Below are positions 16,224 to 57,800 of a stretch of 64,000 nucleotides of DNA, piece by piece (within the stretch, counting starts at the first letter, position 1; every line of letters starts with the position of its first letter). Position numbers and translations under genes: made by a program. Origin of the DNA: an uncultured delta proteobacterium. GTDB taxonomy: Bacteria > Desulfobacterota > Desulfuromonadia > Desulfuromonadales > BM103. Below the pieces are notes generated by a model. It ran no database searches. It was not told where the DNA came from and saw only the letters and a list, made by a program, of their open reading frames with translations. The stretch spans positions 96,001-160,000 of the forward strand of contig CAVQRZ010000009.1 in the NCBI GenBank assembly GCA_963715335.1, in the 5' to 3' direction.

Positions 16224-16697
16224 ATGATGAAACGATTGATTCGGGCAGGGACTGTCGCCGCGGCAAGCCTGCTGGCAGCCAACGCGGCGGCGCTGGAAGT
16301 CGGCACCCCGGCTCCCGACTTTACCGCAACGTCCACGCAGGGCGAGATTGTCCTCAGCCAGAGGGTGCTCAAGGGCCCGGTCGTCCTGGCCTATTATCCC
16401 GCTGATTTCACCCCTGGCTGAACCAGTGAAATGAAGGCTTTTCAGAACGACATCGCCCGTTTTGAAAAGCTCAACGTCCAGGTCCTGGGCGTCAGCGGCG
16501 ATTCACTGGAAACCCATCAGGCGTTTGCCGAAGAACTTGGGCTGAGCTTTCCGCTGCTGGTCGACGACGGTAGCATCCGCAAGCACTATGGCAGCGGCCG
16601 GATCACCCACCTGATCGACCGGCACGGCATCGTTCGCTATGTCCACAAGGGGATGCCGGACAACGAAAAGCTGCTGCAGGAAATCGGCAACTTGTAA
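16224..16697 (+). CDS. Exported peroxiredoxin (BCP/PrxQ type), selenoprotein with UGA-Sec at 16419-16421
   Basis: Two in-frame ORFs joined by TGA at the peroxidatic position (YPADFTPG-U-TSE); signal peptide; downstream hairpin. Confidence 0.88.
16437..16470 (+). promoter_or_regulatory. Putative bacterial SECIS hairpin
   Basis: GCTTTTCAGAACG-ACATCGCC-CGTTTTGAAAAGC, a 13-bp stem with one G-U pair, starting 16 nt after the UGA. Confidence 0.7.
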
Positions 16698-56947: not shown

Positions 56948-57073
56948 GGCGGAACACAACGCCCCGCAACAACGGGGCATTGTTTCAGGCTGCTGGATAC
57001 GTTCAACCAGACTTCACGATAGAGAGGGCAACAGATTAAGCGTCTGTTGCCCTTTTCCATTGGACGTTGGAAA

Positions 57074-57507
57074 TCAAAGACAAAGGCAAAACCCGGGGGT
57101 CGCGCCCCCCGACTGCGCCTTACTCTTTTGTTGGCCCAAAAGAGTAAGCAGAAAAGGGCCTGCGCTGCGCTGGGCATGTCTGGTGCGTCAAGGCGGCAAC
57201 CTCAATTCAGGCCATATTAACCGACTAAATGTTTACGCTTCCCCCGCAGGAGCCGAGGCTCTTGAGAGCCTCTCCTGCTGTGGAGACTTGCGTCGGTAGA
57301 GGTTCTTTTGGCTTTCCCCTTTTAAATCACAGAGAAAGGTCAGGCCCTTTGACACAGGGCCGGATCCCCATCAGTAAAGGTTTTTGAAGTCACAGAAATC
57401 AGGCCTAGGGGATGCCCTCCGCAAGGAGAAGGCACTTTTGCATACTTTTGTTGCCGGGCAAAAGTATGGCGTCGGGCGGGACGCGACCCGCCGGTTTTGT
57501 CTTTCAA
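57074..57507 (-). mobile_element. 430-bp structured repeat, copy D
   Basis: Reverse complement of copy A; also shares ~90 nt of flank with copy C. Confidence 0.8.
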
Positions 57508-57606
57508 AAAATGCTCAAGACAACAACTCAACCTTTTGATGATAGCCCTTGCAAAAAACATGAGGTTTCTATATATTGAATATACAATCAATCTACGAGG
57601 GAACAA

Positions 57607-57759
57607 ATGAAATCTTTACTGGTTCTTTTGGCCGTCATTGCCGCCTGGTACATCCTCAACCGCTGGATTCTACCGCATTTTGGGGTTGAGACCTGACTCT
57701 CCGGAGCCTGTGAACTCCCCGTGCGGGAGGAAGACAAGGATGATGAAGGAAAAAGCTGA
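57607..57759 (+). CDS. Candidate 50-aa membrane micro-selenoprotein (UGA at 57694-57696)
   Basis: RBS GAGGGA; MKSLLVLLAVIAAWYILNRWILPHFGVET-U-LSGACELPVREEDKDDEGKS; hairpin after the UGA; terminator directly after the second stop. Confidence 0.62.
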
Positions 57760-57762
57760 CAT

Positions 57763-57800
57763 AAAAAAGCCCCGGCCGTAAAGGTCGGGGCTTTCTGTTT
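57763..57800. terminator. Bidirectional terminator
   Basis: AAAAAAGCCCCGGCC-GTAAA-GGTCGGGGCTTT between convergent genes. Confidence 0.8.

What the first reader, a model, noticed from the sequence alone, without database searches (positions are those of the whole stretch)
57597..57800. Unannotated 50-aa membrane micro-protein with probable selenocysteine (UxxxxC)
Seen: absent from the ORF track. It has an RBS (GAGGGA), ATG 57607, a hydrophobic helix, ILPHFGVET, then in-frame TGA (57694), then LSGAC and an acidic tail to TGA 57757, immediately followed by a terminator. A hairpin CTCCC-CGTGC-GGGAG starts 19 nt after the first UGA with GU in the loop and can be extended by CCTGT/ACAAGG. Established: bacterial SECIS elements lie directly 3' of the UGA, and Sec often pairs with a nearby Cys. 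The peroxiredoxin at 16224 suggests this genome uses Sec. Inference: a tiny membrane-anchored redox or metal-binding selenoprotein of no family I recognise, located among redox genes (sfrAB, zinc-ribbon protein, rubrerythrin).
Basis: partly seen in the sequence, partly recalled or inferred. Interest (0 to 1): 0.8.

Follow-up and report, generated by a model that had tools for sequence, protein, structure and literature searches.

The report
Forgotten thioredoxin-linked membrane micro-selenoprotein
This 50-codon gene very likely makes a tiny membrane peptide carrying selenocysteine; it belongs to a family that was predicted in 2008 and is missing from the recent catalogues read here, yet is widespread, and its thioredoxin fusions and sulfur-handling neighbours suggest it is likely a membrane redox or sulfur carrier.

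Summary
ORF 57607-57759 encodes 50 aa (U30, C35) with its own promoter, RBS and terminator, and the genome has selA, selB, selD and tRNA-Sec. Homologues occur in 56 of 61 relatives and 179 of 401 same-phylum genomes. Among 219 distinct homologues this codon is TGA (163) or Cys (56), never TAA/TAG. A SECIS-type hairpin follows 151 of 163 TGA forms but 9 of 56 Cys forms. Selenocysteine is very likely (~0.95; no experiment).

It is not a new family. [quoted passage not shown] It has no Pfam/NCBIfam match and is absent from the 2026 review's 119-family table. This scan probably found it before on other genomes.

New here: its breadth, abundant Cys homologues (2008 reported none), thioredoxin fusions (4 of 4 longer hits), and a recurring place beside rhodanese, MBL-rhodanese, YgaP-like and TauE genes, mostly for Cys forms. 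Best mechanism (0.45): a cytoplasm-facing U-x4-C membrane redox/persulfide carrier recycled by thioredoxin. The local 'redox gene' neighbours are not co-transcribed.

The parts
57549..57577 (+). sigma-70-type promoter (TTGCAA, 17 nt, TATATT)
   Evidence: a similar pattern in the upstream 80 nt of 47 of 90 Desulfuromonadales-type homologues against a shuffled mean of 2.8 (pattern modelled on this site)
57571..57592 (.). imperfect AT-rich palindrome over the -10 box and presumed start; possible repressor site (weak lead)
   Evidence: arm match 5.16 of 9 against 3.4 (max 3.91) with shuffled right arm, in 57 of 91 loci; left arm chosen by the anchor
57597..57602 (+). ribosome-binding site GAGGGA
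   Evidence: SD-like motif in 185 of 219 homologues (no control)
57607..57759 (+). 50-aa micro-selenoprotein ORF, MKSLLVLLAVIAAWYILNRWILPHFGVETULSGACELPVREEDKDDEGKS
57610..57681 (+). predicted single membrane helix (residues 2-25), predicted N-out / C-in
   Evidence: AlphaFold2 helix 2-25, pLDDT 94 and 89 over residues 1-20; more K/R after than before the helix in 156 of 215, fewer in 2
57694..57696 (+). in-frame TGA, predicted Sec30
   Evidence: 163 TGA, 48 TGC, 8 TGT, 0 TAA/TAG among 219 distinct homologues
57709..57711 (+). Cys35 codon (U-x4-C partner)
   Evidence: Cys at +5 in 152 of 163 TGA forms and 55 of 56 Cys forms
57715..57729 (+). SECIS-type hairpin, 5-bp stem, CGUGC loop
   Evidence: 95% of cells paired, 13 cells with a compensatory change, 0 of 500 shuffles; 151 of 163 TGA forms against 9 of 56 Cys forms; synonymous recoding gives a mean of 45.5, max 53, of 163
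57766..57794 (.). terminator-like hairpin between this gene and the convergent zinc-ribbon gene
   Evidence: -23.7 kcal/mol, z -5.6

Best explanation
The gene very likely encodes a 50-residue single-helix membrane selenoprotein whose U-x4-C pair is predicted to sit just under the cytoplasmic face of the inner membrane, where it likely acts as a thioredoxin-recycled redox or persulfide carrier. Shown by sequence comparison: a stand-alone transcription unit; a codon that alternates only between TGA and Cys; a covarying hairpin confined to TGA forms; sel machinery in the genome. Inferred: SelB reads the hairpin and inserts Sec (about 0.95). Inferred: N-out/C-in topology (positive-inside rule). 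Inferred and least certain: Sec30 attacks a sulfane-sulfur or disulfide substrate at the membrane, Cys35 resolves it to a selenenyl-sulfide, and thioredoxin reduces it. The variable charged tail looks like a spacer that carries the SECIS. The confidence given is for the whole mechanism.
For: Codon state and in-frame conservation: no stop within 10 codons in frame in 163 of 163 TGA forms, against 31 and 68 in the other two frames; the Ser at +2 switches between TCN and AGY codons; terminal stops are a mix of TGA 64, TAA 53, TAG 46. Hairpin: (55 of 58 TGA against 5 of 27 Cys forms after thinning to <70% identity). Machinery; selA in 25 of 26 TGA-form and 0 of 2 Cys-form genomes; selB in 8 of 8 tested TGA-form genomes lacking selA and 0 of 2 Cys-form genomes. 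Function: all 4 longer homologues found are fusions to a thioredoxin with an intact CxxC, plus 3 fused loci. In 128 loci outside Desulfuromonadales, recurring neighbours are a rhodanese/MBL-rhodanese/YgaP-like cluster (39), zf-HC2 anti-sigma (30), ArsR (23), thioredoxin (22, fusions included) and TauE (10). An MBL or rhodanese gene ends within 200 nt upstream in 15 loci, and a YgaP-like gene lies directly downstream in 16. Rhodaneses cluster with persulfide dioxygenases and can pass sulfane sulfur to thioredoxin (PMC9163753, passages).
Against: No experiment shows Sec insertion, topology or activity. The sulfur/thioredoxin context comes mostly from Cys forms and one metagenome scan: 42 of 56 Cys loci but only 15 of 72 Sec loci; 50 of the 57 positive loci are metagenomic; only 2 of 28 same-phylum loci, which had 1.5-kb flanks. 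No background rate was computed for these neighbours. In this genome the gene stands alone, the only YgaP-like match is on another contig, and no full-length MBL-rhodanese orthologue was found. The 7 fusions are 46-57% identical to the first and may be one event. selA is common in the background (28 of 40 family-negative genomes; 371 of 401). Some TGA-form genomes without a selA hit were not tested for selB (G104, G372, G417, G457). Of the 149 protein rows parsed, 6 show W, 2 R, 1 L and 1 E at the Sec position, unexplained (the W rows may be TGA read as Trp; not checked). 11 of 163 TGA forms lack Cys at exactly +5.
Confidence: 0.45

Rival explanations
1. A selenoprotein as above, but U-x4-C binds a soft metal or metalloid (Cu, Hg, As, Zn) at the membrane, as a chaperone or sink.
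For: ArsR/SmtB regulators lie near 23 of 128 loci (14 Sec forms), FmdB zinc-ribbon genes near 7 and methyltransferases near 7. Many Cys forms have extra CC or CxxC residues in the tail.
Against: No recurring metal transporter appeared among the neighbour clusters scanned. The only fusion partner found is thioredoxin. The two ArsR neighbours scanned score higher with BigR (61 and 67 bits, far below its cut-off of 155) than with the other named subfamilies.
Confidence: 0.2
2. A small accessory subunit or redox switch of a larger membrane protein (a YgaP-like protein or the cytochrome bd subunit I-like protein), rather than a free carrier.
For: A YgaP-like gene lies directly downstream in 16 loci and a cytochrome bd-I-like gene in 11. 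Invariant helix residues W14, W20, L22, P23, G26 suggest a packing face. There is a weak profile match to the YgaP-like C-terminal LGxxC segment (hhalign probability 57% and 41%, 16-17 columns).
Against: These partners are absent next to the Desulfuromonadales-type genes. The profile match is short and below a convincing level, and no Pfam PF11127 hit appears in 45 members.
Confidence: 0.2
3. A selenium-status device: read-through of the UGA is what matters (a sensor or a small selenium store), with little catalytic role.
For: Very small gene with its own conserved promoter and a possible operator; poorly conserved tail.
Against: Cys forms keep the same motif in genomes without selA or selB. 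No downstream co-oriented gene is there to be regulated in this genome.
Confidence: 0.1
4. The UGA is a true stop and the product is a 29-residue membrane peptide, as databases annotate.
For: All 12 hits of the single-sequence protein search are 29-aa fragments. The 67-nt region folds no better than shuffles. Some termination at Sec codons is normal (established knowledge).
Against: 0 of 219 homologues use TAA or TAG here, although 99 of 163 terminal stops do. Cys homologues continue in frame, and the hairpin covaries and tracks TGA.
Confidence: 0.04

Closest known systems
[quoted passage not shown]
   Same: Same short single-helix protein with the LPxxGxxTU motif followed by a Cys. One Data S1 entry is letter for letter the peptide of locus L040.
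   Different: Those sources give 15 reads with 0 Cys homologues (2008), 5 organisms (2016) and 6 entries (2025), with no motif, topology or function in the passages I saw. Here: 179 of 401 genomes in a phylum sample, 966 representatives at E<=0.001, abundant Cys forms, thioredoxin fusions and sulfur-handling neighbours.
Bacterial SECIS-dependent selenoprotein genes (bSECIS model as summarised in PMC13188914)
   Same: In-frame UGA, 5-bp stem, 5-nt loop with G at position 2, loop 23 nt from the UGA, sel genes present.
   Different: Product only 50 aa with no thioredoxin fold; U-x4-C spacing instead of UxxC; the core hairpin alone (-6.5 kcal/mol) is above the model's -7.5 limit.
YgaP-like transmembrane domain (Pfam PF11127, DUF2892)
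   Same: Small membrane module with a membrane-proximal Cys, a similar W-x-L-x-x-L-G-x-x-C end, and frequent co-location.
   Different: No Pfam match; one helix instead of two; the profile similarity is weak (41-57%).
Eukaryotic single-pass selenoproteins SELENOK and SELENOS (recalled, not from a call)
   Same: One membrane helix with a cytoplasmic Sec and a disordered tail.
   Different: Their Sec lies near the C-terminus, far from the helix; no sequence comparison was made.

Membership tests
Bacterial SECIS-dependent selenoprotein gene | In-frame UGA aligned with Cys in homologues, frame conserved beyond it | tested here: met
   163 TGA, 56 Cys, 0 TAA/TAG of 219; no stop within 10 codons in frame
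Bacterial SECIS-dependent selenoprotein gene | selA, selB, selC, selD in the genome | tested here: met
Bacterial SECIS-dependent selenoprotein gene | Hairpin with 3-9 nt loop, 4-16 bp stem, G in loop position 1-2, loop 16-37 nt from the UGA | tested here: met
   5 bp, 5-nt loop, G at position 2, 23 nt; covariation; model
Bacterial SECIS-dependent selenoprotein gene | SECIS free energy of -7.5 kcal/mol or lower | tested here: inconclusive
   core stem -6.5; 67-nt region -15.2 but z -0.17
Bacterial SECIS-dependent selenoprotein gene | Selenium actually incorporated | not testable with these tools
   needs 75Se labelling or mass spectrometry
'Unknown (Geobacter lovleyi)' predicted selenoprotein family | Sequence identity or clear homology with the published representatives | tested here: met
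   the L040 peptide (52% identical to the window protein) equals one Data S1 entry; the other entries share the motif by eye
YgaP-like TM domain (PF11127) | Pfam match above cut-off | tested here: not met
   0 of 45 members at E<=10
YgaP-like TM domain (PF11127) | Remote profile similarity | tested here: inconclusive
   hhalign probability 57% and 41% over 16-17 columns
Thioredoxin-fold selenoproteins (UxxC) | Trx fold and UxxC spacing | tested here: not met
   single helix in the model; U-x4-C spacing; no Pfam/NCBIfam hit
SELENOK / SELENOS | Sequence homology; Sec near the C-terminus (recalled) | not tested
   no direct comparison; Sec here lies 20 residues from the end and about 5 after the helix

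The most novel reading that the evidence does not exclude
One of the more widespread bacterial selenoproteins in anaerobic lineages (179 of 401 genomes in this phylum sample), largely invisible to annotation. It would be a minimal membrane-anchored selenol/thiol persulfide shuttle, possibly a free-standing half of a YgaP-like module, that links rhodanese and persulfide-dioxygenase chemistry to thioredoxin: a bacterial counterpart of the small single-pass eukaryotic selenoproteins.
Probability: 0.3. Interest if true: 0.75.

Novelty: new member of a known kind. Interest (0 to 1): 0.45.

Why it matters
Selenoproteome counts for Desulfobacterota and Planctomycetota likely miss this gene. Gene callers cut it at 29 residues, Pfam and NCBIfam gave no match, and it is not in the 119-family table of the 2026 review, although it was predicted in 2008. 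Its breadth, the natural Sec and Cys variants, and the thioredoxin and sulfur-gene links turn an orphan label into a testable hypothesis. A 50-residue peptide is easy to synthesise or express, and named cultured species carry members according to the 2016 and 2025 supplements.

Tried and rejected
Pfam, NCBIfam and PDB sequence searches: no meaningful match (the best recurring Pfam hit was Arabinose_trans in 14 of 45 members at E>=0.0024, treated as a hydrophobic-helix artefact). Rfam: 6 matches, all far below gathering score. ESM Atlas: one unnamed hypothetical cluster at 0.88, a lead only. Expression: 4 RNA runs laid. Contigs of relatives at about 90% identity span the gene in 2 runs of one study, but contigs cannot show transcription, so I use this as no evidence. 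Operator idea: a palindrome PWM scan of this genome gave 44 sites above threshold, with no sulfur-handling regulon among the top 40 printed. A likeness to the BigR operator is recalled only; a paper search did not confirm it. Lower-stem extension of the SECIS: not conserved. Local synteny with sfrAB, zinc-ribbon and rubrerythrin genes as a functional clue: rejected. Alignment A1 held one mis-oriented row and was not used. Haft & Tolstoy 2025 is not held, so I know it only through the 2026 review's table and NCBIfam.

Full report
Observation. The window holds GAGGGA (57597), ATG (57607), an in-frame TGA (57694) and a final TGA (57757). Read with TGA=U this gives a 50-residue peptide with U30 and C35. 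A sigma-70-like site lies at 57549-57577. A 12-bp hairpin at 57766-57794 folds far better than shuffles (z -5.6). The hairpin CTCCC-CGTGC-GGGAG spans 57715-57729, with its loop 23 nt from the UGA. On its own the 67-nt region after the UGA is not unusually stable (z -0.17). The genome has tRNA-Sec and selA, selB and selD above their cut-offs.

Conservation. The peptide matched 56 of 61 genomes (own plus 60 relatives); 58 of the 59 match rows contain one TGA. A 31-sequence profile matched 179 of 401 genomes drawn from the phylum, and all but one of the 150 listed rows include a TGA; that one has TGA just beyond its match (L191). Record titles place the closest loci in Desulfuromonadales, with others in Planctomycetota and Terriglobia. 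A wider profile matched 24 of 251 genomes of a planctomycete's phylum, 23 with TGA; at most 25 candidates per genome were scored. The protein library gave 966 representatives at E<=0.001. Of 149 rows parsed, 107 have Cys at the position, 25 end there, 10 have W, R, L or E, and 8 were not parsed (the counts include one earlier id). Cys forms are over-represented there because the Sec forms are cut at 29 aa.

Is the UGA Sec? Over 268 loci, reduced to 219 distinct coding sequences, the codon is TGA in 163, TGC in 48 and TGT in 8. The terminal stops of the TGA forms are mixed: TGA 64, TAA 53, TAG 46. No TGA form has an in-frame stop within 10 codons, against 31 and 68 in the other frames. Cys follows at +5 in 152 of 163. 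The metagenome scan was built to enrich Cys forms, so the Sec-to-Cys ratio is not a census. The core stem pairs in 95% of cells in 49 distinct sequences, with 13 cells showing a compensatory C-G to U-A change (all at one pair) and 0 of 500 shuffles as high; kin are not independent. A model-type hairpin occurs in 151 of 163 TGA forms and 9 of 56 Cys forms at equal GC, and in 55 of 58 against 5 of 27 after thinning to <70% identity. Random synonymous recoding lowers 151 to a mean of 45.5, max 53. The lower-stem extension is not conserved (43%). selA was found in 25 of 26 TGA-form genomes, 0 of 2 Cys-form genomes and 28 of 40 family-negative genomes. selB was found in all 8 tested TGA-form genomes that lacked a selA hit and in neither Cys-form genome. 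Four other such genomes were not tested, and 371 of 401 phylum genomes have selA anyway. Together this makes Sec very likely (about 0.95), without experiment.

Anatomy. AlphaFold2 gives one helix (residues 2-25) and a low-confidence tail. K/R residues are more numerous after the helix than before it in 156 of 215 homologues, equal in 57 and fewer in 2, which by the positive-inside rule predicts a cytoplasmic U-x4-C. The invariant residues are W14, W20, L22, P23, G26, T29, U/C30 and C35 in the order-level alignment, and P, G and U/C in the wide one. The tail is variable in length and charge. In Desulfuromonadales-type loci the gene keeps its own promoter pattern (47 of 90, shuffled 2.8) behind 29 different upstream ORF clusters in 88 loci, with a convergent zinc-ribbon gene downstream in 43 loci. 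An imperfect palindrome overlaps the -10 box in 57 of 91 loci; this is a weak lead.

Clues to function. All 4 longer homologues found among 8000 scored candidates are thioredoxin fusions, as are loci L236, L237 and L248. The seven aligned fusions are 46-57% identical to the first and may stem from one event. In 128 loci outside Desulfuromonadales, recurring neighbours are rhodanese, MBL-rhodanese and YgaP-like genes (39 loci), a zf-HC2 anti-sigma factor (30), ArsR (23), thioredoxin (22), a cytochrome bd-I-like gene (11) and TauE (10). One recurring layout is ArsR, rhodanese-YgaP, thioredoxin, MBL-rhodanese, this gene (L192), with TauE following in L203. This resembles persulfide-handling operons (background: PMC9163753, passages); calling the MBL-rhodanese a persulfide dioxygenase is my inference. 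The signal is uneven: 42 of 56 Cys loci against 15 of 72 Sec loci, 50 of 57 from the metagenome scan, with no background control. The window's own genome shows no such context. The end of the peptide resembles the C-terminal segment of YgaP-like domains only weakly. I therefore favour a thioredoxin-recycled membrane redox/persulfide carrier (0.45) over metal binding (0.2), an accessory subunit (0.2), a selenium sensor (0.1) or a true stop (0.04).

What is known. Pfam, NCBIfam (June 2026) and the PDB give no match. The family is not in Table S1 of deep-Sep (PMC12013277; all four parts read, long cells cut) or in Table 1 of the 2026 review (PMC13188914; parts 2-4 of 10 read). Six motif searches of the BSepDB supplement found nothing (PMC13326102; main text seen as passages). 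The word 'lovleyi' is absent from the main text of the 2022 and 2026 reviews. [quoted passage not shown] The 2016 survey's supplement has a row 'Unknown (Geobacter lovleyi)', 5 organisms (PMC5029168; row only, linked by name). The 2008 GOS paper lists an 'Unknown' family with 15 sequences and 0 Cys homologues and gives such sequences in Dataset S1 (PMC2398784; passages). My nine paper searches found no functional study; Haft & Tolstoy 2025 was not available. PMC1914089 (passages) does not cover it.

Earlier notes. Notes of this scan describe what is probably the same family on other genomes (their sequences are not shown, and the sequence look-up found none). Their statement that it is missing from catalogues holds for the review table but not for these supplements.

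Verdict. A real, very probably Sec-containing micro-protein; a new member of a predicted, uncharacterised and half-forgotten family. The additions here are its breadth, its Cys homologues, its predicted topology and its first functional leads. Interest 0.45.

Noticed in passing
window 57025-57510: A roughly 480-bp non-coding dispersed repeat (MITE-like; my label) sits between the upstream oxidoreductase gene and the promoter. blastn gave 123 HSPs in the genome, covering this stretch about 57-85 deep, the longest at 79-91% identity.
   Followed up: partly
   Followed up: partly
G000:C6:149754-151046 and G000:C40:6614-7981: Two selA matches; the C6 copy, next to selB and selD, has a TGA inside the match. 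It may be an assembly variant or contamination (6.87%). selD also has an in-frame TGA.
   Followed up: no
L245:801-2186 and L122:5931-7073: A cytochrome bd subunit I-like protein fused to a cytochrome c domain, followed by a 381-aa membrane protein with no Pfam or NCBIfam match, recurs downstream of the micro-gene and YgaP-like gene (11 and 7 loci).
   Followed up: partly
L037, L053, L095 and similar loci: Some lineages recode the SECIS stretch as LPRDGSK instead of LPVRE/K while keeping a stem with a CGUGA loop: the hairpin, not the peptide, is conserved there.
   Followed up: partly
G000:C31:64620: The second-best match to the promoter palindrome lies upstream of a 465-aa ORF that looks like a multiheme cytochrome (label by eye).
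   Followed up: no
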